Notes: a model not told the origin generated them from the sequence alone. Shown: positions 6,810 through 57,375, counted from the first letter of the stretch. The stretch is DNA of 64,000 nucleotides from Eledone cirrhosa (GCA_964016885.1 OZ024764.1:4898001-4962000), one strand, 5' to 3'. Program-made: numbers and translations.

Positions 6810-6842
6810 CAACATCCCTATGATCGATTACAAGAAATTTAT
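6810..6842 (+). CDS. Micro-exon E2 (class A), 33 nt, phase 2-2, NIPMIDYKKF
   Basis: ttttttctcattacAG | caacatcc...aaatttat | GTAAGT. Confidence 0.8.
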
Positions 6843-7669
6843 GTAAGTGTTACCTTAACAAACTGTCTAACCATTGTTTAATCTGCTCCTCCCTCTACCT
6901 CTCCCTTTATACACACACACATATATACCCCTATATATATATGTATACACACACACACACAAATATATACACATATATACATATATATATACACACATAT
7001 ATATACATATATACAAGCGAGACACGGCCTGCAGACCAATCTCGTCTTAAGTGGGACAAAACCGTCCAACCCATGCTAGCATGGAAGATGGACTTTAAAT
7101 GATGATGATATATATACACTGACACATATATATACATATATACAAATATATATACGCATATATCTATATATATATATATGAGTTCAAGTCCGCCGAGGTT
7201 AACTTTGCCTTCCATCTTTACGAGGTCGATAAAATAAAGTACCAGTGGTGCACTGGGGTAATCGCTGGCCTTGTGCCATAAGCAGAAACTATAATTATAT
7301 ATATATAACCAAAGATTAATATAGTTCGTTGATTACTCAACGAATACAGTTGTACAATAGATTAGAAGAACTCAACAGTGAAAGTTTTCCTGGACTTTTT
7401 AATATTAACAAATGAAAAATATTCTCATAATCAAAATATATACTTTATTATATACATTTCAAAGGTATATGACATACCTCTACGGTCTTGATTCTTCAAT
7501 TCCAGTATTGCAGTCACTGCCAATACTGGAATTGAAGAATCAAGACCGTAGCGCTATGTCATAATCATATATTTTGTCTGATGAGGACGTACTGAAAAAA
7601 CAACAATATATATAATATAGTATATATTTTGATTATGCGAATATTTTTCATTTGTTAACATTTTGAATA

Positions 7670-7715
<46 letters not shown>

Positions 7716-8911
7716 AGGTAAAATGAATAATGAAAGAGTTGCAAGCCTTTAAAACATATCTTTATAAAGCTCTTACATATGTTATATATATATATATATA
7801 TATATATCATCATTATCATTTTATGTCCGCTTTTCCCTGCTTGCAAGGGTTGGGCTCTCACCACCACTGGCCATGTTTTTCGTGGTCTTCCTTTTACTGG
7901 GATTTTTTAGCACCTCTTTACCCAGCGGTCATCCTCGATGCGCATCACTTGTCCATACCATCTCAGTCTTCTCTCCTGCACACCACAACTCATCCCCAGT
8001 TTCTCTCTCAACTCATCTATGGTCTTGTTGTTCACGCATATTGACACACACACACATACACATATATATATTAATTCTATTGACTGATTAATAGCTCTTG
8101 TTAATTTTAAAACCATTCTGTTGAGAGCTTAATTCGTTTTGTGATATTTTGCAATAACACACATACTGAATTCATCCGCCAAAACTAAGGGTTGCCCCCC
8201 CCCCCCCCCCCCTGTGAAGCCCCACGTGGGTTTTGATAACGGTCAGTCCTTGGCTTGGCACTGAACTAAAAGCCTGTTGCAAAAGTGACTTCCTTGTTCG
8301 ATCATCATACAAAAAGCTTAACATTATTTGTCTAATTAGACAGTACTTGATTTAGGAGTTGCAGAAACCCAATACTGGATATTACCAACCTTCCAGGGGT
8401 CCGGGTATAATTTTCCATCATATTTTATTTGTTTTACTCGAATTACTTGGTCGTGTCTATGGCTGTGTGGATAATTGTTTAACCATCGTCTCAGTGCGTT
8501 TGGCCTTTTAACTTACGTTGTTGCTCTAGTTCACTAGCTTCTATGGAGCGTTTCCCACACCACTCGGAAGTTGTTTTTCGTTAATTTCCAATAGCAGAAA
8601 TGCAATTCTCGCTAATTTATATATATATATATATATACACGTATAAGGGATAACAAAATATCGTTATAGGTAATCCAGTTAGAGGTTGTGAATACTCTGT
8701 ATTGTGGTTAGTCTTAGTCTACGGCGTTGTTTGACTCAACAAGAGGTTTCCGTAGGTGGCAAGTATTTGAGTTCTCTTGAATTCCTATGTAAGTTTTGTT
8801 GTACACCAGTTACCATAACTCTAGCAACCCACCACATTTATTTCTACTGAATCTCATATTTGTTAAGTTTAACGTAGAGATTATAGTAATATCAATGTCT
8901 TGCTGTAGCTT

Positions 8912-10996
8912 ATAGGGTAGGTTACCATAGGGTAGGTTACTGTAGGGTAGGTTACCATAGGGTAGATAGTGTCTGGTAGGTTACCATAGGGTAGGTTACG
9001 ATAGGGTAGGATAGTGTTTGGTAGGTTACCATAGGGTAGGTTACTGTAGGGTAGGTTACAATAGGGTAGGATACTGTAGGGTAAGTTACTGGAGTGTAGG
9101 TTACGATAGGGTAGGTTACCATTGGGTAGGTTATTATAGGGTAGGTTACCACAGGGTAGGTTACCATAGAATAGGTTACTGTAGGGTATTTTACCATAGG
9201 GTATGTTACCATAGGGTAGGTTACCTTAAGGTAGGTTACCATAGGTAGGTTACCTTAGGGTAGGTGACCATAGTGTAGGTTACCATAGATTAGGTTCTGT
9301 ATGGTAGGTTAGGTTACTATAGGGTAGGTTACCATAGGGTAGGTTACGATAGGGTTGGTTGCCATAGGGTAGGTTACCATAGCGTAGGTTACTATTGGGT
9401 AGGTTACCATAGGGTAGGTTACTGTAGGTTAGGTTACGTAGGGTTGGTTACCATAGGGTAGGTTGCCATAGAGTAGGTTATTATAGGGTAGGTTACCATA
9501 AGGTAGATTACCTCAGGGTAGGTTACTGTAGGGTAGGTTACCATGGGGTAGGTTACCATAGGGTAGGTTACCATAGTGTAGGTTACCTTAAATTAGGTTA
9601 CCACAGGATAAGTTACCATATGGTAGGTTACTGTAGGTTAGGTTACCATAGGTCAGGTTACCATAGGGTAGGTTACTATAGGTTGCTACCATTGGGTAGG
9701 TTACTGTAGGGTAACATAGGTTACCATAGTGTAGGTTAATATAACATAGGTCACCATAGTGTAGGTTACTTTAGATTAGGTTACCATAGGGTAGGTTACC
9801 ACAGGATAGGTTACCATAGGGTAGGTTACTATAGGTTGTTACCATAGGGTAGGTTACGATATGGTTGGTTACCATAGTGTAGGTTACTATAACATTGGTT
9901 ACCATAGTGTAGGTTACCTTAATTTAGGTTACCATAGGTTAGGTTACCGTATCGTAGGTTACTGTAGGTTAGGTTACCATAGGGTAGGTTACTATAGGGT
10001 AGGCTACCAATGATAGGTTACCATAGGGTAGGTTACCACAGGATATGTTACCATAGGGTAGGTTACTGTAGGGTAGGTTACTATAACATAGGTCACCATA
10101 GTGTAGGTTACTTTACATTAGGTTACCATAGGGTAGGTTACCACAGGATAAGTTACCATATGGTAGGTTACTGTAGGTTGTTACCATAGGCTAGGTTACT
10201 ATAACATAGGTTACCAAAGTGTAGGTTTCTATAGGTTGTTACCATAGGGTAGGTTACTGTAGGGTAGGTTACCATAGGTTAGGTTACCATAGTGTAGGTT
10301 ACTGTAGGGTAGGTTACTGTAGGGTAGAATACTGTAGGGTAGGTTACCATAGGGTAGGATACTGTAGGGTAGGTTACTGTAGGGTAGGTTACTGTAGGGT
10401 AGGATACTGTAGGGTAGGTTACTGTAGGGTAGGTTACCATAGAGTAGGATACTGTAGGGTAGGTTACTGTAGGGTAGGATACTGTAGGGTAGGTTACCGT
10501 AGGGTAGGTTACTGTAGGGTAGGTTACCATAGGGTAGGATACTGTAGGGTAGGTTACTGTAGGGTAGGATACTGTAGGGTAGGATACTGTAGGGTAGGTT
10601 ACCATAGGGTAGGATACTGTAGGGTAGGATACTGTAGGGTAGGATACTGTAGGGTAGGATACTGTAGGGTAGGTTACTGTAGGGTAGGTTACCATATATT
10701 AGGATACTGTAGCGTAGGTTACTGTAGGGTAGGTTACCATAGGGTAGGTTATTATAGTATAGGTTACCGTAGGGTAGGTTTCCATGAAGTAGGTGACCAT
10801 AGGGTAGGTTACTATAAGTTAGGTTACCATAGGGTAGGTTTCCATGAAGTAGGTTACCACAGGGTAGGTTAACATAAATTAGGTTACCTTAGGGTAGGTT
10901 ACCATAAGTTAGGTTACCATAGGGTAGGTTACCATAAGTTAGGTTACCATAGGGTAGGTTACCATAAGTTAGGTTACCAGAGGGTAGGTTACCATA
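8912..10996. repeat. 15-bp satellite array
   Basis: ~2.1 kb of TAGGGTAGGTTAC(CA/TG) variants. Confidence 0.95.
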
Positions 10997-11299
10997 GGTT
11001 TGTTAAGGTTAGGCTAGGCTGGTCTACTCGGTGAGTTAAAACTCACTTGTGACTGTAGTGTTTTAGAATAAGTGTCTTAATCTTTCGTGCACCACTAAAT
11101 TTTTTAACTATTTCCCCTGAAACTGCCTTATTTTGGGGAGGTTATCTTATCAATCGAATAGCGTCCTAAATCTAAATTACACCTCAGAATTTTAGGGGCC
11201 ACGCTATGTACCGGATAGACTTGTACACCGGCATATATATATATGCAAAGAGAGCGAGAGAAACAGCGGGAGTGAGAGAGATACATTAAAACAATAACA

Positions 11300-12440
11300 G
11301 AGGTCTGACTGGAGAATTTACTTTAGAATTTTAAGAGAAAAGAGGAAGGTTTCAGACTTCTGGAATTCCTTCACGAAAATGTCCTATTTATCTGTAACAC
11401 AAACTTCAAAAAATGAGACAACCACTTAATAACCTATAGATCATGTGAGCCCACCAGCTAGATAGATTTCCTTGTTACCATAAGACAGAGTGACTGTTAT
11501 AAAAACAAAGTCCCTCCCTAGTGAAGAATGCACCTCCTAACATACCTTAGGAGACAACCTGGAAGAAAAGAGTATAGATCAAAATCAAAAGGTCTTAAAG
11601 TCAATTTGGTAAAGACTAAAGTTCTAGTAAGTAGAAAGGAAAACTGGGCCCAGATCTCTTCAGGTAAACTGTCCTGCTCAGTGTGCAGAAAAGGAGTAGG
11701 TAGAAATTCCATCCTATGTCCCATATAGAAATGATGGGTACACAAAAGATGTTGTGGGATCTCAGGAAGGCTAACAAAGAATGTAGCTTCTACATGTGGC
11801 CAATGAACAGGAGCAGGAAATATCAAGAGCTCTCGGGTTACAATCTCCTTCAAATACCCAGAAGTCTCTGTAGAGGTGGTAGATAGTTTCTGTTACCTAG
11901 GTGACTAAATCAGCAGTGGAGTAGGGTGGTCCCAAAACTCAGTAACAAGAGTGAGATTAGATTGGAGAAAGTGCAGGGATCTACTACTACTGCTAACTAC
12001 AAAAGGTTTTTCCCTCAAAATGAAGGGCAGACTGTATGATGCAGGTATACAAACAACAATGTTGCACAGCAGCGAGACCTGGGCACTGTGTGTAGAAGAT
12101 CTGTAAAGATTGGAAAGAAATGAAGCCTCCATGCTTCAATGGATGTGCCATAGTAATATAGGCAAATGGCAAAACATAAATGTACTGCGAGAGAAATTAG
12201 GCATAAGAGGGGTTAGATGCAGTGTGCAGGAGAGGGATTGTTTTGGTATAGAAATGTGATGTGTATGAAGGGTGACAGCTGTATAAAAAGGTGCCAAACG
12301 CACAAAGTTGACAGAGGCCGTGGAGTGGGCAGGTCTAGGAAGACTTGGGATGAGGTAAGGAAAGCTGACTTTGCACAATTACACCTAGCTAAGGCAATGA
12401 CACAGGATGGTGACCTCTGGCGCTATGCACAATTATAGAG
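11300..12440 (+). mobile_element. Decayed RTE LINE fragment including C-terminus (copies at ~17650-18790, ~45025-46165, ~60955-62090; partial at ~32362-32735)
   Basis: GLKVNLVKTKVL ... RGVGRSRKTWDEV ... DLWRYA remnants with stops and frameshifts. Confidence 0.85.
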
Positions 12441-12856
12441 GACTACATCCACAATCCACCAGACATTTTCCCTACCAACACCCCACACAAGTTCCCAAAC
12501 CTCACCATAAAGTGGTCCCGCTGCAGCCATGACAAACGTGTCCAGTCCACACTGTACAGTGGTCTTGTAGGTGTCCTGCCAAAAATTAATATTGGGCCTT
12601 AAAACCTTGAGTGCCTTTTGTTCTGTGTATGAACATAAATAATTGTTTCTACTTTTGGCACAAGGCCAGCAATTATCCAGTGCATTACTGGTACTTTATT
12701 TTATCGACCCCGTAAGGATGAAAGGCAAAGTTAACCTCGGCGGGATTTGAACTCAGATCGGAAAGGGAAGTAACTAAATAAATAATGTAATATATATATA
12801 TATGTATTTGTGTGTGTATCTATTTATATATTTAACTATATTTTTTGTAATCACAG

Positions 12857-12898
12857 GACTGATACAGAGGAGAGTATCGCTCCAGAAAAGAATGACGA
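12857..12898 (+). CDS. Micro-exon E3 (class B), 42 nt, phase 2-2, TDTEESIAPEKND
   Basis: ttttttgtaatcacAG | gactgata...aatgacga | GTAAGT. Confidence 0.8.
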
Positions 12899-12971
12899 GT
12901 AAGTTTTAGTTTTACATACTATCTAACCATTATTCTATCTGTTCCTTCCCATCTCTCTCTCTCTCTCTCTT

Positions 12972-13003
<32 letters not shown>

Positions 13004-13132
13004 GTAAGGTGTATTACTGGCTGTGTAAAACGGTCCAATAAATTTTTGTTAGCAATATTAAGTCCTCCACGCTTTTGTATATCTCCAATTCCATTCAAGG
13101 GAACAGCTAGATGATGTAAAACGGAGTATTTG

Positions 13133-13235
13133 TATCAAAATGAAAATCCGAAGGCAAGGTAAAATTTCCAATCATTTTAATCACGTTGTGATTAAAATGA
13201 TTGGAAATCTTACCTTCCTTTGGATTTTCATTTTG

Positions 13236-13238
<3 letters not shown>
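13133..13238. repeat. ~105-bp palindrome downstream of each class B exon (copies at ~19601-19698, ~33444-33540, ~47048-47153, ~63037-63141)
   Basis: tatcaaaatgaaaatcc...ttccaatcattttaatcac-gtt-gtgattaaaatgattggaa...ggattttcattttgata. Confidence 0.9.
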
Positions 13239-13269
<31 letters not shown>

Positions 13270-13289
13270 GACTCTGTCTCTTATAAACC

Positions 13290-13806
13290 ACGTTGGCTAT
13301 TATGACACTCTCTCCAACATAGAGAGCTATGTTGGCTAATATGACTCTCTCTCTCCCTCTCTATGTTGGCTATTATGACTCTCTCTCTCTCCCTCTCTAT
13401 GTTGGCTATTATGACTCTATCTCTCTCTATGTTGGCTATAATGACTCTCTCTCTCTATTTATGTTGGCTATTATGACTCTCTCTCTCTCTCTCTCTCTCT
13501 CCCTCCCTCTCTATGTTGGCTATTATGACTCTCTCTCTCCCTCTCTATGTTGGCTATTATGACTCTCTCTCTCTCTATGTTGGCTATAATGACTCTCTCT
13601 CTCTCTATGTTGGCTATTATGACTCTCCCACTCTATGTTGGCTATTATGACTCTCTCTCTCTCTATGTTGGCTATAATGACTCTCTCTCTCTCTATGTTG
13701 GCTATAATGACACTCCCACTCTATGTTGGCTATTATGACTCTCTCTCTCTCTATGTTGGCTATAATGACTCTCTCTCTCTCTATGTTGGCTATTATGTCT
13801 CTCTCT
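13290..13806. repeat. ~28-30-bp minisatellite CTATGTTGGCTA(T/A)ATGA(CT)n, variable copy number (also ~19738-19927, ~33590-33767, ~47206-47799, ~63200-63463)
   Basis: Direct tandem repeats with embedded CT microsatellite; source of the MLAIMTLSLS pseudo-ORFs. Confidence 0.95.
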
Positions 13807-14162
13807 GTTCAAGCTTTATGAAGTTAGTTGAACATCTTCAAAGTCCTCCCATATTCGCCTTGTCTAATATGCGTTCTTGTACCTGATTATTTCCCCCAAA
13901 TCTCCTGGGAAGTTATAAGCCATGATGGCTACCTATCTCACAATTTCTCTCCTGCCCACCCCCTCACACCACCATAGTCTATTCGACCAATCAAACCTCA
14001 GAAACATGTCCCCACCCATTACCAACCCCAACAAACTCTGCCATTACTACTACTTCTACTTTTCTTCTAGCCCTTACCAGCCCCAACAAACCCTGACATT
14101 ATTACTACTATTGTCCTTCTAGCTATGGGCTGAGGATAAATGGGGCTACCCCAAATTAATAA

Positions 14163-15372
14163 ATGAATATGAATCCGCGAGTTACCAAGCACCCATGCAA
14201 AGCTTTAATTCAGAGACAGGAAGCATACACACCCCACTGCAAAAATTCACCCTTTCCCACGAGTGGTGGCAAATGCCCAAAACTCCGAGTTGGAACCATC
14301 AATGTAAGCACAATGAAAGGAAGAGCAGGAGAAATTGTAGAGATGCTAGAGCGAAAGAAAATTGATGTATGCTGTGTGCAAGAGACTAGATGGAGAGCAG
14401 AGTCCGCTGGAGTCCTTGCAGGCAGAAGTCAGTGCTACCAACTTGTCTGGGTAGCAAATGACAACAGGATGGGAGGTGTAGCTATCCTATTAGCTGACAA
14501 ATGGGTAGATAAGGTAATCTCAGTGAACAGGGTGAATGCAAGAATAATGAAACTTGGACAAGTCCTGAATAAAACAATTGCCACAATAATATCAGCTTAC
14601 GCACCCCAATTGGGGTTGCCAGCTGACTATAGCGGGGAATTTAGTTTAGAGGTCGGTGTCCACCAGGGCTCTGTTCTTAGCGCACTCCTGTTCGTTGAAG
14701 TATTGCAAGCAATAACGGAGGTGATTATGACCGGATGCCCATGGGAACTCCTATATGCGGATCATCTCACACTTATAGCCGAATCTATGGTGGAACTATA
14801 CTTGCTCAGTATGTAGAAAAGGAGTAGGCTGGCTGCAAAAGGCTTTCCCCTCAAAATGAAAAGCAGACTGTATGATGTGGGTATACGAATAGCAATGTTA
14901 CATAGTAGTGAAACCTGGGCGCCGTCTGTGGAAGACTTGCATAGATTAGAAAGAAATGAAGCCTGCATGCTCCGATGGATGTGTAATAGTAATATACGCA
15001 AACGGCAAAGCATAAATGAATTGAGAGAGTGACTGAGCATAAGAGGAATGAAATGCTGTGTGCAGGAGAGGAGGTTGCATTGGACATGTGATGCGTATGA
15101 AGGATGACAGCTGTATAAAAAGGTGTAGAGCAGTAGAAGTCGATGGAAGCCGTGGAGTGGGGAGACCCAAGAAGAGCTGGGATGAGGTGATAAAAGCCGG
15201 ACTCACTGTAAATGAGGTTGGTGTTAGGAAGGGCATCCAGCTGTAGGAATCAAGCCAGAATCAGTTCCTGTATGAGCAAGACAAGGTCAGCTGAACAGAC
15301 ACTGCCCACAACAGGACAACCCGTCTAACCCATGCTTGCGTGGAAGAATGGACGTAAAACAGTGATGAAGAT
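14163..15372 (+). mobile_element. Internally deleted RTE LINE: AP-endonuclease N-part fused in frame to RT mid-part, then C-terminus and 3' tail
   Basis: LRVGTINV, VCCVQETRW and SAYAPQ (APE domain) joined to VGVHQGSVLS...LLYADH (YADD mutated). Confidence 0.9.
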
Positions 15373-15629
15373 GATATATCATATATGCTAGTGTACTATT
15401 TGACATTTGGAGCCTAAAAATATCTCTCCAAAACCAGGGGTCGACTTGTCTGCTGAATATAGTATGTTACCTTTACCACTGAGGGGTATACAGTGAAACT
15501 GCCTGCCTAACACTTGTTGTACACCACTTACCATAACTCTAGCAACCCACCACATTTATTTCTACTGAATCTCATATTTGTTAAGTTTAACGTAGAGATT
15601 ATAGTAATATCAATGTCTTGCTGTAGCTT

Positions 15630-17345
15630 ATAGGGTAGGTTACTGTTGGGTAGGTTACTGTAGCGTAGGTTACCATAGGGTAGGATAGTGTCTGGTAGGT
15701 TACCATAGGGTAGGTTACTGTAGGGTAGGTTACGATAGGGCAGGATACTGTAGGGTAAGTTACTGGAGGGTAGGTTACCATAGGGTAGGTTACCGTAGGG
15801 TAGGTTACCATTGGGTAGGTTATTATAGGGTAGGTTACTACAGGGTAGGTGACCATAGAATAGGTTACTGTAGGGTATTTTACCATAGGGTATGTTACCA
15901 TAGGGTAGGTTACCTTATGGTAGGTTACCTTAAGGTAGGTTACCATAGGGTAAGTTACCATAGGGTAGGTTACCTTAGGGTAGGTGACCATAGTGTAGGC
16001 TACCATAGGTTAGGTTCTGTATGGTAGGTTAGGTTACTATAGGGTAGGTTACCATAGGGTAGGTTACGATAGGGTTAGTTACCATAGGGTAGGTTACCAT
16101 AGCGTAGGTTACTATTGGGTAGGTTACCATAGGGTAGGTTACTGTAGGTTAGGTTACGTAGGGTAGGTTACCATAGGGTAGGTTGCCATAGAGTAGGTTA
16201 TTATAGGGTAGGTTACCATAAGGTAGATTACCTCAGGGTATGTTACCATATGGTAGGTTACCATATGGTAGGTTACCATAGGGTAGGTTACTGTAGGGTA
16301 GTTTACCATAGTGTAGGATACCTTAAATTAGGTTACCACAGGAAAAGTTACCATATGGTAGGTTACTGTAGGTTAGGTTACCATAGGGTAGGTTATCATA
16401 GGTTAGGTTACCAAAGGGTAGGTTACTATAGGTTGTTACCATTGGGTAGGTTACTGTAGGGTAACATAGGTTACGATAGTGTAGGTTAATATAACATAGG
16501 TCACCATAGTGTAGGTTACCTTAGATTAGGTTACCACAGGATAGGTTACCATATGGTAGGTTACTGTAGGTTAGGTCACCATAGGGTAGGTTACTATAGG
16601 GTAGGCTACTATAGGTTGTTACCATAGGGTAGGTTACTATAGGGTAGGCTACTATAGGTTGTTACCATAGGGTAGGTTACTATAGGTTGTTACCATAGAG
16701 TAGGTTACAATATGGTTGGTTACCATAGTGTAGGTTACTATAACATTGGTTACCATAGTGTAGGTTACCTTAATTTAGGTTACCATAGGTTAGGTTACCG
16801 TATCGTAGGTTACTGTAGGTTAGGTTACAATAGGGTAGGTTACTATAGGGTAGGCTACCAATGATAGGTTATGATGGGTTAGGTTCCATAGGGTAGGTTA
16901 CCACAGTATATGTTACCATATGGTAGGTTAGGTTACCATAGGGTAGGTCACCATAGTGTAGGTTACTTTAGATTAGGTTACCATAGGGTAGGTTACCACA
17001 GGATAAGTTACCATATGGTAGGTTACTATAACATAGGTTACCAAAGTGTAGGTTTCTATAGGTTGTTACCATAGGGTAGGTTACTGTAGGGTAGGTTACT
17101 GTAAGGTAGGTTACCATAGGGTAGGATACTGTAGGGTAGGTTACCAGAGGGTAGGTTATTATAGTATAGGTTACCGTAGGGTAGGTTTCCATGAAGTAGG
17201 TGACCATAGGGTAGGTTACTATAAGTTAGGTTACCATAGGGTAGGTTTCCATGAAGTAGGTTACCACAGGGTAGGTTAACATAAATTAGGTTACCTTAGG
17301 TTAGGTTACCATAAGTTAGGTTACCATACGGTAGGTTACCATAGG
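15630..17345. repeat. 15-bp satellite array
   Basis: Same monomer and same left and right flanking modules. Confidence 0.95.
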
Positions 17346-19080
17346 TTTGTTAAGGTTAGGCTAGGCTGGTCTACTCGGTGAGTTAAAACTCACTTGTGAC
17401 TGTAGTGTTTTAGAAGAAGTGTCTTAATCTTTCGTGCACCACTAAATTTTTTAACTATTTCCCCTGAAACTGCCTTATTTTGGGGAGGTTATCTTATCAA
17501 TCGAATAGCGTCCTAAATCTAAATTACACCTCAGAATTTTAGGGGCCACGCTATGTACCGGATAGACTTGTACACCGGCATATATATATATGCAAAGAGA
17601 GCGAGAGAAACAGCGGGAGTGAGAGAGATACATTAAAACAATAACAGAGGTCTGACTGGAGAATTTACTTTAGAATTTTAAGAGAAAAGAGGAAGGTTTC
17701 AGACTTCTGGAATTCCTTCACGAAAATGTCCTATTTATCTGTAACACAAACTTCAAAAAATGAGACAACCACTTAATAACATATAGATCATGTGAGCCCA
17801 CCAGCTAGATAGATTTCCTTGTTACCATAAGACAGAGTGACTGTTATAAACACAAAGTCCCTCCCTAGTGAAGAATGCACCTCCCAACATACCTTAGGAG
17901 ACAAACTGGAAGAAAAGAGTATAGATCAAAATCAAAAGGTCTTAAAGTCAATTTGGTAAAGACTAAAGTTCTAGTAAGTAGAAAGGAAAACAGGGCCCAG
18001 ATCTCTTCAGGTAAACTGTCCTGCTCAGTGTGCAGAAAAGGAGTAGGTAGAAATTCCATCCTATGTCCCATATAGAAATGATGGGTACACAAAAGATGTT
18101 GTGGGATCTCAGGGAGGCTAACAAAGAACGTAGCTTCTACATGTGGCCAATGAACAGGAGATGGAAATATCAAGAGCTCTCGGGTTACAATCTCCTTCAA
18201 ATACCCGAAAGTCTCTGTAGAGGTGGTAGATAGTTTCTGTTACCTAGGTGACTAAATCAGCAGTGGAGTAGGGTGGTCCCAAAACTCAGTAACAAGAGTG
18301 AGATTAGATTGGAGAAAGTGCAGGGATCTACTACTACTGCTAACAACAAAAAGTTTTTCCCTCAAAATGAAGGGCAGACTGTATGATGCAGGTATACAAA
18401 CAACAATGTTGCACAGCAGCGAGACCTGGGCACTGTGTGTAGAAGATCTGTAAAGATTGGAAAGAAATGAAGCCTCCATGCTTCAATGGATGTGCCATAG
18501 TAATATATGCAAATGGCAAAACATAAATGTACTGCGAGAGAAATTAGGCATAAGAGGGGTTAGATGCAGTGTGCAGGAGAGGGATTGTTTTGGTATAGAC
18601 ATGTGATGTGTATGAAGGGTGACAGCTGTATAAAAAGGTGCCGAACAAACAAAGTTGACAGAAACCGTGGAGTGGGCAGGTCTAGGAAGACATGGGATGA
18701 GGTAAGGAAAGCTGACTTTGCACAATTACACCTCGCTAAGGCAATGACACAGGAGGGTGACCTCTGGCGCTATGCACAATTATAGAGGACCTGCCCTCAT
18801 AAATCCACGAGCTGAGGCATATATCTAGTATGTAACACCTTCCCCACCATCATCCCTCCCAAACACCTTCACCCCTATAACTACATCCACAATCCACCAG
18901 ACATTTTCCCTACCAACACCCCACACAAGTTCCCAAACCTCACCATAAAGTGGTCCTGCTGCAGCCATGACAAATGTGCCCAGTCCACACTGTACAGTGG
19001 TCTTGTAGGTGTCCTGCCAAAAATCAATATTGGGCCTTAAAACCTTGAGTCCCTTTTGTTCTGTGTATGAACATAAATAA

Positions 19081-19265
19081 TTGTTTCTACTTTTGGCACA
19101 AGGCCAGCAATTATCCAGTGCATTACTGGTACTTTATTTTATCGACCCCGTAAGGATGAAAGGCAAAGTTAACCTTGGCGGGATTTGAACTCAGATCATA
19201 CAGGGAGGTAACTATGCTTCAAAGCATGGCGTCCGACTCTCTACCGATACTGCCAATCCACCGCC
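19081..19265 (-). mobile_element. Full-length tRNA-SINE (Nin/Deu-like) upstream of class B exons, with target-site duplication (also ~32937-33121; tandem pairs at ~46367-46705 and ~62295-62630; chimeric single copy at ~12643-12780)
   Basis: Minus-strand A box TGGCAGTATCGG and B box GTTCAAATCC; flanked by direct repeat tgaacataaataa. Confidence 0.8.
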
Positions 19266-19353
19266 TGAACATAAATAAATAATGTAATATATATATATAT
19301 GTATGTGTGTGTGTATCTATTTATATATTTAACTATATTTTTTGTAATCACAG

Positions 19354-19395
19354 GACTGTTCCACTGCAGAGTTCCGCTAGAGGAAACAGTGACGA
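19354..19395 (+). CDS. Micro-exon E4 (class B), 42 nt, phase 2-2, TVPLQSSARGNSD
   Basis: ttttttgtaatcacAG | gactgttc...agtgacga | GTAAGT. Confidence 0.8.
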
Positions 19396-21492: not shown

Positions 21493-21749
21493 GATATATC
21501 ATATATGCTAGTGTACTATTTGACATTTGGAGCCTAAAAATATCTCTCCAAAACCAGGGGTTGACTTGTCTGCTGAATATAGTATGTTACCTTTACCACT
21601 GAGGGGTAAACAGTGAAACTGCCTGCCTAACACTTGTTGTACACCACTTACCATAACTCTAGCAACCCACCACATTTATTTCTACTGAATCTCATATTTG
21701 TTAAGTTTAACGTAGAGATTATAGTAATATCAATGTCTTGCTGTAGCTT

Positions 21750-40478: not shown

Positions 40479-40508
40479 GAACACCACTAATTTCTCCGAA
40501 AAATTTCT
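40479..40508 (+). CDS. Micro-exon E8 (class A), 30 nt, phase 2-2, NTTNFSEKF
   Basis: tttttctcattacAG | gaacacca...aaatttct | GTAAGT. Confidence 0.8.
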
Positions 40509-41361: not shown

Positions 41362-41443
<82 letters not shown>

Positions 41444-41509
41444 AGGTAAAATGAATAATGAAAGAGTTGCAAGCCTTTAAAACATATCTTTATAAAGCTC
41501 TTACATATG

Positions 41510-41554
<45 letters not shown>

Positions 41555-46780: not shown

Positions 46781-46822
46781 GACTGATACAGAGGAGGGTA
46801 CCGCTCCAGAAAATAATGAGGA
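46781..46822 (+). CDS. Micro-exon E9 (class B), 42 nt, phase 2-2, TDTEEGTAPENNE
   Basis: ttttttgtaatcacAG | gactgata...aatgagga | GTAAGT. Confidence 0.8.
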
Positions 46823-47148
46823 GTAAGTTTTAGTTTTACATACTATCTAACCATTATTCTATCTGTTCCTTCCCATCTCTCTCTCTCTCTCTCTTTATAT
46901 ATATATATATTTATATATAGTAAGGTGTATTACTGGCTGTGTAAAACGGTCCAATAAATTTTTGTTAGCAATATTAAGTCTCCACGCTTTTGTATATCTC
47001 CAATTCCATTCAAGGGAACAGCTAGATGATGTAAAACGGAGTATTTGTATCAAAATGAAAATCCGAAGGCAAGGTAAAATTTCCAATCATTTTAATCACA
47101 TCGTGATTAAAATGATTGGAAATCTTACCTTCCTTTGGATTTTCATTT

Positions 47149-47186
<38 letters not shown>

Positions 47187-48161
47187 CTCTGACTCTTATA
47201 AACCACGTTGGCTATTATGACACTCTCTCCAACATAGAGAGCTATGTTGGCTAATATGACTATCTCTCTCTATGTTGGCTATTATGACTCTCTCTCTCTC
47301 TCTCTATCCCTCCCTCTCTATGTTGGCTAATATGACTCTCTCTCTCCCTCTCTATGTTGGCTATTATGACTCTCTCTCTCTCTATGTTGGCTATAATGAC
47401 TCTCTCTCTCTCTCTATGTTGGCTATAATGACTCTCTCTCTATGTTGGCTATAATGACTCTCTCTCTCTCTCTCTATGTTGGCTATAATGACTCTCTCTC
47501 TCTCTATGTTGGCTATTATGACTCTCTCTCTCTCTATGTTGGCTATAATGACTCTCTCTCTCTCTATGTTGGCTATTATGACTCTCTCTCTCTCTATGTT
47601 GGCTATAATGACTCTCTCTCTCTCTATGTTGGCTATAATGACTCTCTCTCTATGTTGGCTATAATGACTCTCTCTCTCTCTCTCTATGTTGGCTATAATG
47701 ACTCTCTCTCTCTCTATGTTGGCTATTATGACTCTCTCTCTCTCTATGTTGGCTATAATGACTCTCTCTCTCTCTATGTTGGCTATTATGTCTCTCTCTG
47801 TTCAAGGTTTATGAAGTTAGATGAACATCTTCAAAGTCCTCCCATATTCGCCTTGTCTAATATGCGTTCTTGTACCTGATTATTTCCCCCAGATCTCCTG
47901 GGATGTTATAAACCATGATGGCTACCTATCTCACAATTTCTCTCCTGCCCACCCCCTCACACCACCATAGTCTATTCGACCAATCAAACCTCAGCAACAT
48001 GTCCCCACCCATTACCAACCCCAACAAACTCTGCCATTACTACTACTTCTACTTTTCTTCTAGCCCTTACCAGCCCCAACAAACCCTGACATTATTACTA
48101 CTATTGTCCTTCTAGCCATGGGCTGAGGATAAATGGGGCTACCCCAAATTAATAAATAAAT

Positions 48162-49365
48162 ATGAATCCGCGAGTTACCAAGCACCCATGCAAAGCTTTA
48201 ATTCAGAGACAGGAAGCATACACACCCCACTGCAAAAATTCACCCTTTCCCACGAGTGGTGGCAAATGCCCAAAACTCCGAGTTGGAACCATCAATGTAA
48301 GCACAATGAAAGGAAGAGCAGGAGAAATTGTAGAGATGCTAGAGCGAAAGAAAATTGATGTATGCTGTGTGCAAGAGACTAGATGGAGAGCAGAGTCCGC
48401 TGGAGTCCTTGCAGGCAGAAGTCAGTGCTACCAATTTGTCTGGGTAGCAAATGACAACAGGATGGGAGGTGTAGCTATCCTATTAGCTGACAAATGGGTA
48501 GATAAGGTAATCTCAGTGAACAGGGTGAATGCAAGAATAATGAAACTTGGACTAGTCCTGAATAAAACAATTGCCACAATAATATCAGCTTACGCACCCC
48601 AATTGGGGTTGCCAGCTGACTATAGCGGGGAATTTAGTTTAGAGGTCGGTGTCCACCAGGGCTCTGTTCTTAGCCCACTCCTGTTCGTTAAAGTATTGCA
48701 AGCAATAATGGAGGTGATTATGACCGGATGCCCATGGGAACTCCTATATGCGGATCATCTCACACTTATAGCCGAATCTATGGTGGAACTATACTTGCTC
48801 AGTATGTAGGAAAGGAGTAGGCTGGCTGCAAAAGGTTTTCCCCTCAAAATGAAAAGCAGACTGTATGATGTGGGTATACGAATAGCAATGTTACATAGTA
48901 GTGAAACCTGGGCGCCGTCTGTGGAAGACTTGCATAGATTAGAAAGAAACGAAGCCTGCATGCTCCGATGGATGTGTAATAGTAATATACGCAAACGGCA
49001 AAGCATAAATGAATTGAGAGAGTGACTGAGCATAAGAGGAATGAAATGCTGTGTGCAGGAGAGGATGTTGCATTGGACATGTGATGCGTATGAAGGATGA
49101 CAGCTGTATAAAAAGGTGTAGAGCAGTAGAAGTCGATGGAAGCCGTGGAGTGGGGAGACCCAAGAAGAGCTGGGATGAGGTGATAAAAGCCGGACTCACT
49201 GTAAATGAGGTTGGTGTTAGGAAGGGCATCCAGCTGTAGGAATCAAGCCAGAATCAGTTCCTGTATGAGCAAGACAAGGTCAGCTGAACAGACACTGCCC
49301 ACAACAGGACAACCCGTCTAACCCATGCTTGCGTGGAAGAATGGACGTAAAACAGTGATGAAGAT
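48162..49365 (+). mobile_element. Duplicate of the deleted RTE LINE at 14163 (a fifth copy starts at ~63820 and runs off the window)
   Basis: Near-identical ORF and tail. Confidence 0.9.
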
Positions 49366-49619
49366 GATATATCATATATGCTAGTGTACTATTTGACATT
49401 TGGATCCTAAAAATATCTCTCCAAAACCAGGGGTCGACTTGTCTGCTGAATATAGTATGTTACCTTTACCACTGAGGGGTAAACAGTGAAACTGCCTGCC
49501 TAACACTTGTACACCACTTACCATAACTCTAGCAACCCACCACATTTATTTCTACTGAATCTCATATTTGTTAAGTTTAACGTAGAGATTATAGTAATAT
49601 CAATGTCTTGCTGTAGCTT

Positions 49620-51036
49620 ATAGGGTAGGTTACCATACGGTAGGGTACTGTAGGGTAGGTTACCATAGGGCAGGTTACTGTAGGGTAGGATACTGTCTGG
49701 TAGGTTACCATAGGGTAGGTTACTGTAGGGTAGGTTACTATAGGGTAGGTTACTGTAGGGTAGGTTACCTTGGGTAGGTTACTGTAGTGTAGGTTACCTT
49801 GGGTAGGTTACTATAGGGTAGGTTACTGTAGTGTAGATTACTCTAGGCTAGGTTACCATAGGGTAGGTTACTGTAGTGTAGATTACCATAGGGTAGGTTA
49901 CCACAGAGTAGGTGACCATAGGGTATGTTATTATAGGGTAGGTAACTGTAGGTTAGGTTACTGTAGGGTAGGTTACCTTATGGTAAGTTACTATAGGGTA
50001 GGTTACCATAGTGTAGGTTACCTTATGGTAAGTTACTATAGGGTAGGATACCATAGGGTAGGTTACCTTATGGTAAGTTACTATAGGGTAGGTTACCATA
50101 GTGTAGGTTACCTTATGGTAAGTTACTATAGGGTAGGTTACCATAGGGTAGGTTACCTTAGTGTAGGTAAGAATAGGGTAGGTTACCATAGGTTAGGTTA
50201 CTGTAGGGTAGGTTACCATAAGGTAGGTTACTGTAGGGTAGGTTACCATAGGGTAGGTTACTGTAGGGTAAATTACCATAGGGTAGGTTACCATAGGGTA
50301 GTTTACCGTAGGTTAGGTTACTGTAGGGTAGGTTAACATAGGGTATGTTAGCATAGGGTTGGTTACCATAGGTTAAGTTCATATAGGTTGTTACCATATG
50401 GTAGGTTACTGTAGGGTAGGTTGCTATAGGGTAGGTTATCGTAGAGTAGGTTACTATAAGGTAGGTTACCATAAGGTAGGTTACCGTAGGGTAGGTTACT
50501 ATAGGGTAGGGTATCATAGGATAGGTTACCATAAGGCAGGTTACCATAGAGTAGGTTACCTTAGGGTAGTTTACTATAAGATAGGTTACCATAGTGTAGC
50601 TTACCATAGGGTAGGTTGTTACCATAGGCAAGGTTACTATAGGGTGGGTTACCATAGGGTAGTTTATGATATGGTTGGTTACCATAGTGTAGGTTACTAT
50701 AACATAGGTTACCATAGTGTAGGATACCTTAGATTAGGTTACCACAGGATAGGTTACTGTAGGTTAGGTTACCATATGGTAGGTTACCATAGGTTAGGTT
50801 AGCAATGGGTAGGTTACTATAGGTTGTTACCATAAGGTAGGTTACTGTATGGTGGGTTACCATAGGGTAGGGTACCATAAAGTAGGTTATTATAGTGTAG
50901 GTTACCTTAGGATAGGTAACCATAGGGTAGGTTACTATGGGGTAAGTTACCATAGGGTAGGTTCCCATAGGGTAGGTTAACATAAGCTAGGTTACCTCAG
51001 GGTAGGTTACCATACCATAAAGTAGGTTACCATAGG
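49620..51036. repeat. 15-bp satellite array
   Basis: Same monomer and flanks. Confidence 0.95.
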
Positions 51037-54000
51037 TTTGTTAAGGTTAGGCTAGGCTGGTTTACTCGGTGAGTTAAAACTCACTTGTGACTGTAGTGTT
51101 TTAGAAGTGTCTCAATCTTTCATGCACCACTAAATTTTTTAACTATTTCCCCTGAAACTGCCTTATTTTTGGGGGTCATCTTATCAATCGAATAGCGTCC
51201 TAAATCTAAATTATACTTCAGAATTTTAGGGGCCGACTTATGTACCGGATAGACTTGTACACCGGCATATATGGTATATATATATATATGCATGGAGGCA
51301 CATGGCTTAGTGGTTAGAGCATTGGTCATGCAATCGAAAGGTTGTGAGTTCAATTCTCAGACCGGGTGATGTGTTGGTTCCTTGAGCAAGACACTTTATT
51401 TCACATTGCTCCAGTTTACTCAGCTGTAGAAATGAGATGATAGGGACTGGGGTCCCTATCATTCCACTGCAAAGTGGTCGTGGAGGTGCCACGGCAAAAA
51501 AAGCACCCAGCACTCACTGTAAATGAGGTTGGTGACAGGAAGGGAATACAGCTGTAGAAATCAAGCCAGAATCAGTTCCCGTCCCGCCCTTGCAAGCAGG
51601 GAAAAGTGGACGTAAAATGAAATGATGAAAGAGAGATAGAGAGAAAGAGAGGGAGTGAGAGAGATACATTAAAACAATAACAGAAGGTCTGACTGGAGAA
51701 TTTACTTTAGAATTCCTTCACGGAAATGTCTTATTTATCTGTAACACAAACTTCAAAAAACAAGACAACCACTTAATAACCGATAGATCAAGTGAGCCCT
51801 CCAGCTAGATAGATTTCCTTGTTACCAGAAGACAGAGTGACTGTTATAAACACAAAGTCCTTCCCTAGTGAAGAATGCACCTCCCAAAATACCTTAGAAT
51901 ACAACCTGGAAGAAAAGAGTATAGATCAAAATCAAAAGGTCTTAAAGTCAATTTGGTAAAGACTAAAGTTCTAGTAAGTAGAAAGGAAAACAGGGCCCAG
52001 ATCTCTTCAGGTAAACTGTCCTGCTCAGTGTGCAGAAAAGGAGTAGGTAGAAATTCCATCCTATGTCCCATATAGAAATGATGGGTACACAAAAGATGTC
52101 GTGGGATCTCAGGGAGGCTAACAAAGAACGTAGCTTCTACATGTGGCCAGTGAACAGGGGCAGGAAATATCAAGAGCTCTCGAGTTACAATCTCCTTCAA
52201 ATGCCCAGAAGTCTCTGCAGAGGTGGTAGATAGTTTCTGTTACCTAGGTGACTAAATCAGCAGTGGAGGAGGGTGGTCCAAAAACTCAGTAACAAGAGTG
52301 AGATTAGATTGGAGAAAGTGCAGGGATCTACTACTACTGCTAACTACAAAACATTTTTCCATCAAAATGAAGGGCAGACTGTATGATGCAGGTATACAAA
52401 CAACAATGTTGCACAGCAGCGAGACCTGGGCACTGTGTGTAGAAGATCTGTAAAGATTGGAAAGAAATGAAGCCTCCATGCTTCAATGGATGTGCCATAG
52501 TAATATATGCAAATGGCAAAACATAGGTTACCATTGGGTAGGTTACTGTAGGGTAGGGTACCATAGGGTGGGTTACCATAGCGTAGGTTACTGAATGGTA
52601 GGTTACATTTTGTTAGGTTACTGTAGGGTAGGTTACCATAGGGTAGGTTACCATAGGGTGGGTTACCATAGGGTAGGTTACTGTAGGGTAGGTTACCATA
52701 GGGTAGTTATGTAGGGTAGGTTACCATAGTGTAGGTTACTGTAGGGTAGGTTACCATAGAGTAGGATACTGTAGGGTAGGTTACCATAGGGTAGTTATGT
52801 AGGGTAGGTTACCATAGTGTAGGTTACTGTAGGGTAGGTTACCATAGAGTAGGATACTGTAGGGTAGGTTACCATAGGTTAGGTCACTGTAGGGTAGGTT
52901 ACCATAGGGTAGGTTATTATAGGGTAGGTTACCATAGGTTAGGTTACTATAGGGTTGGTTGCCATAGGGTATGTTACCATAGGGTAGGTTACTATAAGGT
53001 AGGTTACCATACCATAGGTTAGGTTACCATATGTTTGTTAAGGTTAGGCTAGGCTGGTTTACTCGGTGAGTTAAAACTCACTTGCGACTGTAGTGTTTTA
53101 GAAGAAGTGTCTTAATCTTTAGTGCGCCACTAAATTTTTTAACTATTTCCCCTGAAACTGCCTTATTTTTTGGGTGTCGTCTTATGAATCGAATAGTGTC
53201 GTATAGGACTATCTGGCATGTTTTCTATGGCTGGATGCCCTTCCTAACACCAACCACGTTTACAGTGTGGGGACTGGGAGGTTTTTACCATGTTAACTAC
53301 ACGGCCAATTTACAGCGTGGACTGTGTGTTTTATTGTCATGACACCTACACAACCTCATTTATTTAGGACTGGATGATGTGTGACCAACATAATTTTACA
53401 GAGATGGGGGTGGGAGTAGTGGGGTGGGGGCGTATATTTGGTTAAGAGGTGCCTACTGACTGTAGGTTTCGCTTTGTACTTAGGCAAGGGTGGTCTTCTG
53501 TATTACTGCGTAGCGCCAAAGATCTCGGTTCAGTGACATTGTTTTGGAGAGGTGTAAGTGTGTGAGATCGGAATTTATCAATTCGTCCCAGGGTTTTCTG
53601 GGTCTGCCTACTCCGTGGCTACCATCTATTTTGATCGCCCTGCACTTTTTTATACAGCTGTCGTCTTTCATGCGCATCACGTGACCATACCAACGTAGTC
53701 TTCTCTCGAGTAAACAACATCTGATCCCTCTTATTCCTAATTTCTCACTTAGTTCATTTATGCTTTGCCGTTCACGTATATTACTATTACACATCCAGCG
53801 GAGCATGCAAACTTCATTCCTCTCCAGTCTGCGTATATCCTCTGCACACAATGCCCAAGTCTCACTGCCATGTAACATTGTTGTTCGTATGCAGGCATCA
53901 TACAGCCTGCCTTTCATTTTTAGAGAGAACCCTTTAGCGGCCAATCGTACAATGAAAAGAGCGTCTGTGATACTTTTACCTGACACAAACCCAAACTGCA

Positions 54001-54552
54001 TTTCATCTAGATCAATTCTCTCTCTGATTAGTTGCGCTATTACTTTTTCTGTGACCCTCATGAACTGGTCAATTAATTTAATGCCTCTATAGTTTCCCCT
54101 ATCTAGGGCATCTCCTTTACCCTTGTAGCAGTTAATGATGATGATATATATATAAAAGAAATAGGATTTCGCTTCAAGCATATCTTTATACAATATGTAT
54201 AAATATTTTGTATCTCCAAAGAAATACGGTTTTAGGAAGCCTTAGCTCTGCAAACCCTGGGGGGCAAACGTCCTCTGGTGATGTCCAGCAGAAGCAAAGG
54301 GGACAACCGTCTATCCATTTCAGGCTTAACTGGCCATCGTCAGGACAGTCCCTCCCACTGCTTGCGACTGCTGGCCAGTTAAGCATGAAATGCATAGATG
54401 GTTGTCCCCCTTGCTTCTGCTGGACATCACCAGAGGCCTTGAAACCCTAAGTCCCTTTTGTTCTGTGTATGAACAGAAATAAATAATGTAATATATATAT
54501 ATGTATGTGTGTGTATCTATTTATATATTTAACTATATGTTTCTCATTACAG

Positions 54553-54630
54553 GAACACCACTAATATCTCCGAAAAATTTATTACTACTCTTTTATGCAG
54601 CCTTCCCTCCAATGATTACAAGAAATTTAT
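54553..54630 (+). CDS. Micro-exon E10 (class A), 78 nt, phase 2-2, NTTNISEKFITTLLCSLPSNDYKKF; internal in-frame acceptor gives a 30-nt form at 54601-54630
   Basis: tttctcattacAG | gaacacca...aaatttat | GTAAGT; internal ctcttttatgcAG ending at 54600. Confidence 0.75.
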
Positions 54631-56460
54631 GTAAGTGTTACCTTAACATACTGTCTAACCATTGTTTAATCTGCTCCTCCCTCTACCTCTCCCTTTATAC
54701 ACACACACACATATATACCCCTATATATATATGTATACACACACACACACAAATATATACACATATATACATATATATATACACACATATATATATAATC
54801 ACATATATATATACATATATACAAGCGAGACACGGCCTGCTGACCAATCTCGCCTTAAGTGGGACAAAACCGTCCAACCCATGCTAGCATGGAAGATGGA
54901 CTTTAAATGATGATGATATATACACACTGACACATATATATACATATATATATACACATATATATACGCATATATTTATACATATATATATATACACATA
55001 TATATACGCATATATCTATATATATATATATGAGTTCAAGTCCGCCGAGGTTAACTTTGCCTTTCATCTTTACGAGGTCGATAAAATAAAGTACCAGTGG
55101 TGTACTGGGGTAATCGCTGGCCTTGTGCCAAAAGTAGAAACTATATTTATATATATATATAACCAAAGATTAATATAGTTCGTTGATTACTCAACGAATA
55201 CAGTTGTACAATAGATTAGAAGAACTCAACAGTGAAAGTTTTCCTGGACTTTTTAATATTAACAAATGAAAAATATTCTCATAATCAAAATATATACTTT
55301 ATTATATACATTTCAAAGGTATATGACATACCTCTACGGTCTTGATTCTTCAATTCCAGTATTGCAGTCACTGCCAATACTGGAATTGAAGAATCAAGAC
55401 CGTAGCGCTATGTCATAATCATATATTTTGTCTGATGAGGACGTACTGAAAAAACAACAATATATATAATATAGTATATATTTTGATTATGCGAATATTT
55501 TTCATTTGTTAACATTTTGAATAATATATATACATATATATATATACATATATATATATATGTATAGGTAAAATGAATAATGAAAGAGTTGCAAGCCTTT
55601 AAAACATATCTTTATAAAGCTCTTACATATGTTATATATATATATATCATCATTATCATTTTATGTCCGCTTTTCCCTGCTTGCAAGGGTTGGGCTCTCA
55701 CCACCACTGGCCATGTTTTTCGTGGTCTTCCTTTTACTGGGATTTTTTAGCACCTCTTTACCCAGCAGTCATCCTCGATGCGCATCACTTGTCCATACCA
55801 TCTCAGTCTTCTCTCCTGCACACCACAACTCATCCCCAGTTTCTCTCTCAACTCATCTATGGTCTTGTCGTTCACGCACATTGACACACACACACACACA
55901 CATATATATATATTAATTCTATTGACTGATTAATAGCTCTTGTTAATTTTAAAACCATTCTGTTGAGAGCTTAATTCGTTCTGTGATATTTTGCAATTTT
56001 GCAATAACACACATACTGAATTCATCCGCCAAAACTAAGGGCTGCCCCCCACCCCCCCTGTGAAGCCCCACGTGGGTTTTGATAACGGTCAGTCCTTGGC
56101 TTGGCACTGAACTAAAAGCCTGTTGAGAAAGTGACTTCCTTGTTCGATCATCATACCAAAAGCTTAACATTATTTGTCTAAGTAGACAGTACTTGATTTA
56201 GGAGTTGCAGAAACCCAATACTGGATATTACCAACCTTCCAGGGGTCCGGGTATAATTTTCCATCATATTTTATTTGTTTTACTCGAATTACTTGGTCGT
56301 GTCTATGGCTGTGCGGATAATTGTTTAACCATCGTCTCAGTGTGTTTGGCCTTTTAACTTATGTTGTTGCTCTAGTTCACTAGCTTCTATGGAGCGCCTG
56401 CCACACATCTCGGAAGTTGTTTTTCGTTAATTTCCAATAGCAGAAATGCAATTCTCGCTA

Positions 56461-56498
<38 letters not shown>

Positions 56499-57339
56499 GT
56501 ATAAGGGATAACAAAATATCGTTATAGGTAATCCAGGTAGAAGTTGTGAATACTCTGTATTGTGGTTAGTCTTAGTCTACAGCGTTGTTTGACTCAACAA
56601 GAGGTTTCCGTAGGTGGCAAGTATTTGAGTTCTCTTGAATTTCTATGTAAGTTTATCTTGGAGTAATAATATTGAAAGCGTGAAGAATAACATGGTCAAC
56701 AGTACAAAAGAAGGTTTTTATTTACAGTATTAACAATTGTTTCACTGATTAAGTTGTCTAAAAATCGCTGAAAACTTAAAGCTGTGCCACTCAATCTACT
56801 ATATATATTGGAAGTGGTCGGACGTTGTATATTTAAGTAAATAAGTAGGTGTAGTCGGATAAACGTCGAAACGGCTTGGTAGAATGCAGCGAAAATTTAC
56901 ACAGTTATGCAGAATTGTAGCAGTTAATGATGATATATATGTAAAAGAAATAGGATTTCGCTTCAAGCATATCTTTATACAATATGTATAAATATTTTGT
57001 ATCTCCAAAGAAATACGGTTTTAGGAAGCCTTAGCTCTGCAAACCCTGGGGGGCTAACGTCCTCTGGTGATGTCCAGCAGAAGCAAGGGGGACAACCGTC
57101 TATGCATTTCAGGCTTAACTGACCATCGTCTGGACAGTCCCTCCCACTGCTTGCGACTGCTGGCCAGTTAAGCGTGAAATGCATAGACGGTTGTCCCCCT
57201 TGCTTCTGCTGGACATCACCAGAGGCCTTGAAACCCTAAGTCCCTTTTGCTCTGTGTATGAACAGAAATAAATAATGTAATATATATATATGTATGTGTG
57301 TATCTATTTATATATTTAACTATTTTTTTCTCATTACAG

Positions 57340-57375
57340 GAACACCACTACTTCAATTGATTCCAATAAATTGAT
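57340..57375 (+). CDS. Micro-exon E11 (class A), 36 nt, phase 2-2, NTTTSIDSNKL
   Basis: ttttttctcattacAG | gaacacca...aaattgat | GTAAGT; both other frames contain stops. Confidence 0.8.

What the first reader, a model, noticed from the sequence alone, without database searches (positions are those of the whole stretch)
6810..57375. Class A exons in the same cassette have replaced 5' halves but keep a K-K-hydrophobic 3' end
Seen: E2, E5, E6 and E11 lie in the same duplicated context yet encode NIPMIDYKKF, WFNRLKKL, PNYFPEYKKV and NTTTSIDSNKL. E2 vs E6 differ at 14/33 nt, 13 of them in the first 19 nt. E11 carries the gaacaccact 5' end otherwise typical of E1/E8/E10, although its flanks are of the E2 type. 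Inference: divergence this local and extreme suggests short-tract gene conversion between exons, or intron homogenisation that spares the exons, rather than point mutation alone.
Basis: partly seen in the sequence, partly recalled or inferred. Interest (0 to 1): 0.7.

Follow-up and report, generated by a model that had tools for sequence, protein, structure and literature searches.

The report
Hypervariable micro-exons in octopus neprilysin-like gene
These tiny in-frame exons are 4 of 103 tandem copies lying in front of the membrane anchor of a neprilysin-like gene, likely of an octopus; they differ up to 30 times more than the introns around them, likely because recombination keeps the introns alike while selection keeps the exons different.

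Summary
The numbers hold: E2/E6 differ at 14/33 nt, 13 in the first 19, against 4/456 in their flanks. The window shows 12 of 103 micro-exon cassettes (530 kb), all multiples of 3 and stop-free in one frame. They precede the signal-anchor exon of a divergent neprilysin (M13) gene. An RNA-like contig joins a KKL-type class A exon to that anchor exon, so K-K-hydrophobic is the inherited cytoplasmic juxtamembrane end (25 of 49 class A copies; E11 has NKL). Exon diversity is 0.44 per site versus 0.015 upstream. Flanks are mosaic. E11 and E1 look like short conversion tracts, but E2 and E6 have no donor in the genome. Class B exons and the gene's constant exons show pN/pS about 2-3; class A silent sites are also deeply diverged. 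Best reading: old exon lineages kept by selection inside introns homogenised by unequal exchange; exon-targeted mutation is not excluded. Splicing of the window's own exons is not shown, and this copy has HKxxH instead of HExxH. The scan noted the same array earlier from a neighbouring window, without RNA. Paralogues carry 6, 1 and 9 cassettes.

The parts
4087..4143 (+). E1, class A, 57 nt, NTT-type 5' end, internal in-frame acceptor-like site, weak GTGTTA donor; chimeric markers
6810..6842 (+). E2, class A micro-exon, 33 nt, NIPMIDYKKF
12857..12898 (+). E3, class B micro-exon, 42 nt, TDTEESIAPEKND
19354..19395 (+). E4, class B micro-exon, 42 nt, TVPLQSSARGNSD
27528..27554 (+). E5, class A micro-exon, 27 nt, WFNRLKKL; one of 7 cassettes whose last 11 nt match the RNA junction to the anchor exon
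31538..31570 (+). E6, class A micro-exon, 33 nt, PNYFPEYKKV
33210..33251 (+). E7, class B micro-exon, 42 nt, FDSLPRSTIGNSD
40479..40508 (+). E8, class A micro-exon, 30 nt, NTTNFSEKF
46781..46822 (+). E9, class B micro-exon, 42 nt, TDTEEGTAPENNE
54553..54630 (+). E10, class A, 78 nt: 30-nt exon + 18-nt acceptor-like spacer + 30-nt exon-like part, all in frame
57340..57375 (+). E11, class A micro-exon, 36 nt, NTTTSIDSNKL; likely short conversion tract of the other flank lineage
62709..62750 (+). E12, class B micro-exon, 42 nt, TDTEEGTAPENND, GTACGT donor
1..64000 (+). Tandem cassettes of 1.7-8 kb (introns with 15-bp and 30-bp minisatellites, LINE/SINE fragments), 92-98% identical in large blocks; part of the 103-cassette array G000:C25:4871418-5399532 upstream of the anchor exon (C25:5413283) of an M13 gene ending near C25:5629520

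Best explanation
E2, E5, E6 and E11 are frame-preserving copies in a 103-exon array upstream of the membrane-anchor exon of a neprilysin-like gene, and their divergence likely arises because unequal crossing-over and conversion keep the introns alike while selection likely keeps old, differing exon versions. Shown: the array, its frame symmetry, the downstream M13 gene, one spliced KKL-exon/anchor/M13 contig, mosaic flanks, and excess amino-acid change in class B, the anchor exon and the constant exons. Inferred: class A descends from the single juxtamembrane exon still seen in a paralogue, so the K-K-hydrophobic end is the basic cytoplasmic stretch before a type II signal anchor, inherited by the internal copies; E11 and E1 are occasional short conversion tracts between the two flank lineages; the internal exons build a long or variably skipped S/T/E/N-rich cytoplasmic tail.
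For: 103 cassettes, lengths 27-78 all multiples of 3, 0 of 55 distinct exons with a stop in the shared frame against about 30 expected (joint null 1e-7 over 20 families). The anchor exon opens in the same phase, with Kyte-Doolittle 2.9 over 19 aa; 19 further exons follow with consistent phases and VNAFY, HxxxH, ENIAD motifs (Pfam M13 in 3 of 9 exons, E 4e-5 to 0.013). Run X6: one 150-nt contig, depth 116, covers exactly the anchor exon, with 11 nt of a KKL-type exon end before it and 26 nt of the next exon after it. Paralogue J has one cassette 1.2 kb before its anchor exon, K has 7 B-like then 2 A-like, H has 6. Diversity: class A exon 0.44 vs 0.015 upstream; class B 0.24 vs about 0.03. Four-gamete conflicts in flanks rise from 14% under 100 nt to 39% beyond 800 nt; identical exons occur with flanks 8-9 markers apart. 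Class A silent difference 0.23 in codons of unchanged amino acid. Class B pN/pS 2.1-2.7, p 0.02-0.002; constant exons between paralogues 87:9 and 134:19 N:S, pN/pS 1.9-3.4; the single-copy anchor exon differs at 25/89 and 33/98 sites vs 8/160 and 9/154 in its introns. E11 is the 1 of 19 cassettes of its flank lineage with the other lineage's +19 marker, and also has that lineage's 5' and 3' exon ends.
Against: Class A shows no excess of amino-acid change (pN/pS 0.95-1.2 overall, 0.56-0.73 in close pairs), so selection on class A itself is inferred. Flank diversity does not rise next to the exon (0.01-0.03 in the nearest 25-nt windows), whereas spared old lineages should leave a halo; only the WFN type shows one. 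Exon and flank distances are partly congruent (Mantel rho 0.31 and 0.44, p 0.0005). No junction of E2, E6 or E11 type was seen, and the X6 exon alleles match paralogue H, so expression of this copy and of the window's exons is not shown. This copy has HKIFH, lacks the candidate ATG exon of J and K, and 4 of 103 donors are weak or lost. N counts put all differences of a changed codon under N, which inflates them slightly. No trees or GENECONV were run.
Confidence: 0.62

Rival explanations
1. Exon-confined hypermutation (for example repair templated on spliced or error-prone cDNA) creates the new 5' halves; introns are simply young.
For: Sharp boundaries at the splice sites and no halo; class A silent divergence 0.23-0.43 vs flank 0.015; 30 of 51 changes in close class A pairs are transversions vs 27 of 72 in flanks; no donors for E2/E6.
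Against: Changes in class B, the anchor exon and constant exons are mostly non-synonymous, which mutation alone does not give; no A/G excess in class A (10 of 51), so no editing-like signature; the WFN type does have diverged near flanks.
Confidence: 0.15
2. The variable 5' halves were pasted in by short-tract conversion from donors elsewhere in all four exons.
For: E11 and the 57-nt E1 type carry markers of two flank lineages; 78-nt exons look like two class A exons with an acceptor-like spacer.
Against: The 5' 19-mers of E2 and E6 each have 1 match in 3 Gb, themselves, at up to 1 mismatch; E2's 5' end is homologous to the NTT type (8 of 11).
Confidence: 0.08
3. The array is a decaying or never-used by-product of runaway segmental duplication in a dead gene copy, or partly an assembly expansion; only the last cassette is a working exon.
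For: HKIFH in this copy, missing candidate start exon, 4 damaged donors, near-identical higher-order units of 20-23 kb, only 6 cassettes in the 98-99% identical copy H; RNA shows only a terminal-type junction.
Against: No stop and no frameshift in 55 distinct exons that differ by up to about 50%; acceptors intact in all 103; a neutral relic would not diverge in exons 29 times faster than in introns; three runs of another library hold about half of the window's sampled words.
Confidence: 0.12

Closest known systems
Neprilysin/ECE (M13) family, type II membrane zinc peptidases (PMC2259306, passages read)
   Same: Signal anchor followed by M13 exons in order, VNAFY and ENIAD motifs, HExxH position; tblastn matches to Octopus vulgaris ECE2-like P0001.
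   Different: N-terminal tail encoded by 103 micro-exons (about 1,377 aa if all joined); HKIFH in this copy and HQIFH in J; very divergent ectodomain, no close protein found.
Schistosoma SmVAL6 and micro-exon genes (PMC2270263 and PMC4350168, passages read)
   Same: Many small same-phase exons appended to a conserved domain or forming the gene; high dN/dS reported for MEGs.
   Different: SmVAL6 has 38 exons at the C-terminus with alternative splicing shown; MEG products are secreted. Here 103 copies of two related cassettes, N-terminal and cytoplasmic, with near-identical introns; alternative splicing not shown.
Chicken BG genes (PMC5043582, passages read)
   Same: Cytoplasmic tail built from small repeated exons whose number varies between alleles (13-21 in BG1).
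   Different: BG tails are heptad coiled-coil repeats of 21 nt on type I Ig proteins, with no selection detected in the BG1 tail; here 27-78 nt, low-complexity, hypervariable.
Venom genes with exons evolving faster than introns (conotoxins, snake PLA2; pattern recalled; PMC10561478 passages read do not test it)
   Same: Coding sequence more divergent than neighbouring introns among recent duplicates.
   Different: Here the units are exons inside one gene and encode a predicted cytoplasmic segment, not a secreted toxin.
Dscam-type mutually exclusive exon clusters (recalled)
   Same: Large tandem cluster of duplicated exons between constant exons.
   Different: Exons are symmetric, so any number can be joined; the one RNA sample shows only KKL-type exons on the anchor exon.

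Membership tests
M13 neprilysin family | M13 domain homology in exon order | tested here: met
   PF01431 in 3 of 9 exons tested (E 4e-5, 4e-4, 0.013; each under the whole-protein cut-off), PF05649 E 0.079 in one more; last exon over the cut-off in the genome search; 6 of 9 gave no M13 match
M13 neprilysin family | Type II signal anchor before the ectodomain | tested here: met
   Hydrophobic exon (KD 2.9) spliced to the first M13 exon in RNA; topology itself is predicted
M13 neprilysin family | VNAFY and (G)ENIAD motifs | tested here: met
   AVNAFY and QENIAD (motifs named)
Active M13 peptidase | Intact HExxH | tested here: not met
   HKIFH in the copy with the array; HEIFH in H and K; HQIFH in J
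Micro-exon gene (MEG/SmVAL6-like architecture) | Many small symmetric exons | tested here: met
   103 cassettes, 95 of them 27-42 nt, all multiples of 3, same phase
Micro-exon gene (MEG/SmVAL6-like architecture) | Alternative inclusion giving many isoforms | tested here: inconclusive
   Only the junction to the anchor exon was examined; a fork 12 nt upstream fits two KKL-type exons but also two gene copies
Schistosome MEG family | Signal peptide, secreted, micro-exons form most of the coding region | tested here: not met
   Micro-exons precede a signal anchor and 20 ordinary exons
Dscam-like mutually exclusive cluster | Exactly one variant exon joined per transcript, many variants used | tested here: inconclusive
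   In X6 only KKL-type ends reach the anchor exon; contigs drop rare forms; one sample
Gene-conversion mosaic | Tract bounded by switches in diagnostic markers, donor type present | tested here: met
   E11 and E1 type; not met for E2 and E6; no GENECONV run

The most novel reading that the evidence does not exclude
An octopus has turned a catalytically dead neprilysin into a diversity receptor: about 100 symmetric, selected micro-exons are combined by alternative splicing into a huge repertoire of cytoplasmic tails, the array expands and contracts from 1 to over 100 exons between recent copies, and exon versions persist or mutate independently of their introns.
Probability: 0.27. Interest if true: 0.87.

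Novelty: new variant of a known kind. Interest (0 to 1): 0.7.

Why it matters
Tandem micro-exon tails are known from schistosome and chicken immune-related genes, but my searches (listings only) showed none for an M13 peptidase or a cephalopod. With 103 copies, near-identical introns and exons differing by 30-50%, the locus lets one test directly whether 'exons faster than introns' comes from intron homogenisation plus selection or from targeted mutation. Positive selection on a predicted cytoplasmic tail and membrane anchor points to an unknown intracellular partner or conflict.

Tried and rejected
Other reading frames: frame 0 has stops in 41 and frame 2 in 22 of 56 distinct exons (one copy was offset by a base there, 55 after correction). 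Secreted peptide precursor with dibasic cleavage sites, and extracellular glycosylated stalk: rejected because the array lies before a type II anchor. A-to-I editing written back through cDNA: no A/G excess in class A. External donors: none. Protein searches with single exons found no close full-length relative (6 candidates, none scored; one repetitive, unrelated-looking hit); short queries make this weak. No RNA holder was listed for the window stretch itself; that blank is no evidence. The first read layout was swamped by repeats. Runs of other organisms gave no usable orthologous exon. A degenerate pattern search failed (0 matches). Marker columns were mis-indexed and redone; the cassette regex missed J's single cassette, which searches show. 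The start exon of this copy was not found. Paper supplements were not read.

Full report
Observation. Each lies between a CAG acceptor and a GT donor. E2 and E6 differ at 14 of 33 nt, 13 in the first 19, while 4 of 456 flank sites differ. E11 ends N-K-L and E5 has a distinct near flank, so the title is true for 3 of 4 ends and only loosely for the context.

The array. The window is G000:C25:4898001-4962000 of a 3.0-Gb genome. Another M13 gene of this genome matches Octopus vulgaris at 87%, so an octopus is likely. An intron anchor occurs 101 times forward and 5 times reverse. Fetching the region gave 103 cassettes from 4871418 to 5399500: 49 class A and 54 class B, lengths 27, 30, 33, 36, 42, 57, 78. 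None of 55 distinct exons has a stop in the frame that starts after one base; shuffles leave about 25 open, and the joint null over 20 families is 1e-7. No possible junction makes a stop. Donors: 96 GTAAGT, 2 GTGAGT, 1 GTACGT, 3 weak GTGTTA, 1 lost.

The gene. Fourteen kb after the last cassette lies a hydrophobic exon in the same phase, followed by 19 exons with consistent phases that carry the M13 motifs VNAFY and ENIAD and end near 5629520. Pfam M13 matched 3 of 9 exons tested, all C-terminal, each below the whole-protein cut-off. The zinc motif reads HKIFH in this copy. Four family members exist: this one with 103 cassettes, H (inverted, 1.8 Mb away, 13 of 2880 intron sites different) with 6, J with 1, K with 9 in the stretch examined. 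In J the single 42-nt cassette (RRWGKWPAKHKCC) lies 1.2 kb before the anchor exon; in K the two A-like cassettes are last. This suggests that class A derives from the juxtamembrane exon. J and K share a candidate ATG exon in the right phase inside an interspersed repeat; this copy and H break off before it.

RNA. Run X6 has no library record but behaves as spliced RNA: depth 116-226 on three exons and none on a unique intron stretch that run X1 covers. One 150-nt contig covers exactly the anchor exon, with an 11-nt 5' end equal to the end of the KKL-type class A exons and a 26-nt 3' end equal to the next exon. Seven of the 103 cassettes, E5 and the last one among them, end that way. The contig ends fit graph forks for 31-mers: the last cassettes of this copy and H share exactly 11 nt, and the anchor exons of J and K share 4 nt with it, 4+26=30; this is inference. 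An abundant E2- or E6-type junction would have forked earlier, so in this one sample only KKL-type exons reach the anchor. The exon alleles in X6 match H, so expression of this copy is not established. K-K-hydrophobic thus reads as the basic cytoplasmic stretch before a type II anchor (established rule, recalled); it is kept in 25 of 49 class A cassettes.

How the exons diverged. Mean pairwise difference is 0.44 in class A exons against 0.015 in 400 nt upstream, and 0.24 in class B against about 0.03. Among 41 short class A cassettes, exon and flank distances correlate (rho 0.31 and 0.44) but are far from proportional: 38 of 74 pairs with at most 5 differences at shared variable flank columns have exon distance above 0.2 (singleton and microsatellite columns were left out). 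Raw counts agree: E11 has 0 of 398-400 upstream mismatches to four cassettes whose exons differ from it by up to 10 of 33 aligned sites. Flanks are patchworks, and four-gamete conflicts rise with distance, as expected from repeated exchange. E11 is the only one of 19 cassettes of its flank lineage with the other lineage's marker at +19, and has that lineage's 5' and 3' exon ends; the 57-nt E1 type shows the reverse. These are likely short conversion tracts. E2 and E6 have no donor. Class B shows 55.5 N to 7.5 S changes (pN/pS 2.1-2.7); class A shows 138 to 39 (0.95-1.2), with silent difference 0.23 even in codons of unchanged amino acid. The single-copy anchor exon, which cannot have been shuffled within the array, differs from J and K at 25/89 and 33/98 sites, nearly all non-synonymous, against 5-6% in its introns; the constant exons give pN/pS 1.9-3.4, or 1.6-2.8 without the anchor exon. 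So selection acts on this family, and class A exon types look older than their introns. The missing halo of flank divergence is the main fact against this and keeps exon-targeted mutation open. I ran no trees and no GENECONV; distances, markers and four-gamete counts stand in for them.

Comparison. It works like the SmVAL6 tail or chicken BG tails (passages read) but sits in an M13 gene (passages read), N-terminal and much larger. An octopus digestive-gland paper lists neprilysin-like transcripts without gene structure (PMC12607849, passages). Searches (listings only) showed no report of such an array.

Verdict. Real, far beyond chance, and part of an unusual gene. Use of the internal exons remains untested.

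Noticed in passing
G000:C25:5458300-5617400 (L082-L098): A 46-bp satellite of about 3,290 units fills one intron of the M13 gene (128, 32 and 65 units in H, J, K); its unit resembles the acceptor plus the start of the 46-nt exon at 5617369-5617414, whose acceptor it supplies.
   Followed up: partly
G000:C25:7156000-7370000 minus (L061-L080, L101-L103): Inverted copy H, 97-99% identical over more than 200 kb, with 6 cassettes and its array start duplicated; recent duplication or uncollapsed haplotype.
   Followed up: partly
window 4087-4143 and 54553-54630: The 57- and 78-nt exons hold an internal acceptor-like site in frame, 30 nt before the donor; 6 of 8 keep the AG.
   Followed up: partly
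array junctions: 29 of 102 in-order junctions would form ATG (class A ends AT, next exon starts G), possible start codons in a copy lacking the J/K start exon.
   Followed up: no
window about 3807-3970 and 6530-6695: A long inverted repeat (MITE-like) lies about 115-280 nt upstream of class A acceptors and could fold in the pre-mRNA (seen).
   Followed up: no
L107:1990-2075 and L155:1950-2040: Candidate ATG exon of J and K lies within an interspersed repeat with about 160 candidates genome-wide, possible exaptation.
   Followed up: partly
G000:C25:4803524-4805099 (L003): C2H2 zinc-finger ORFs 66 kb upstream of the array.
   Followed up: no
L058:1285-1417 in run X1: A contig of depth 3 shows a further anchor-exon version with 5 substitutions and two 3-nt deletions, not among the four assembled copies.
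   Followed up: no
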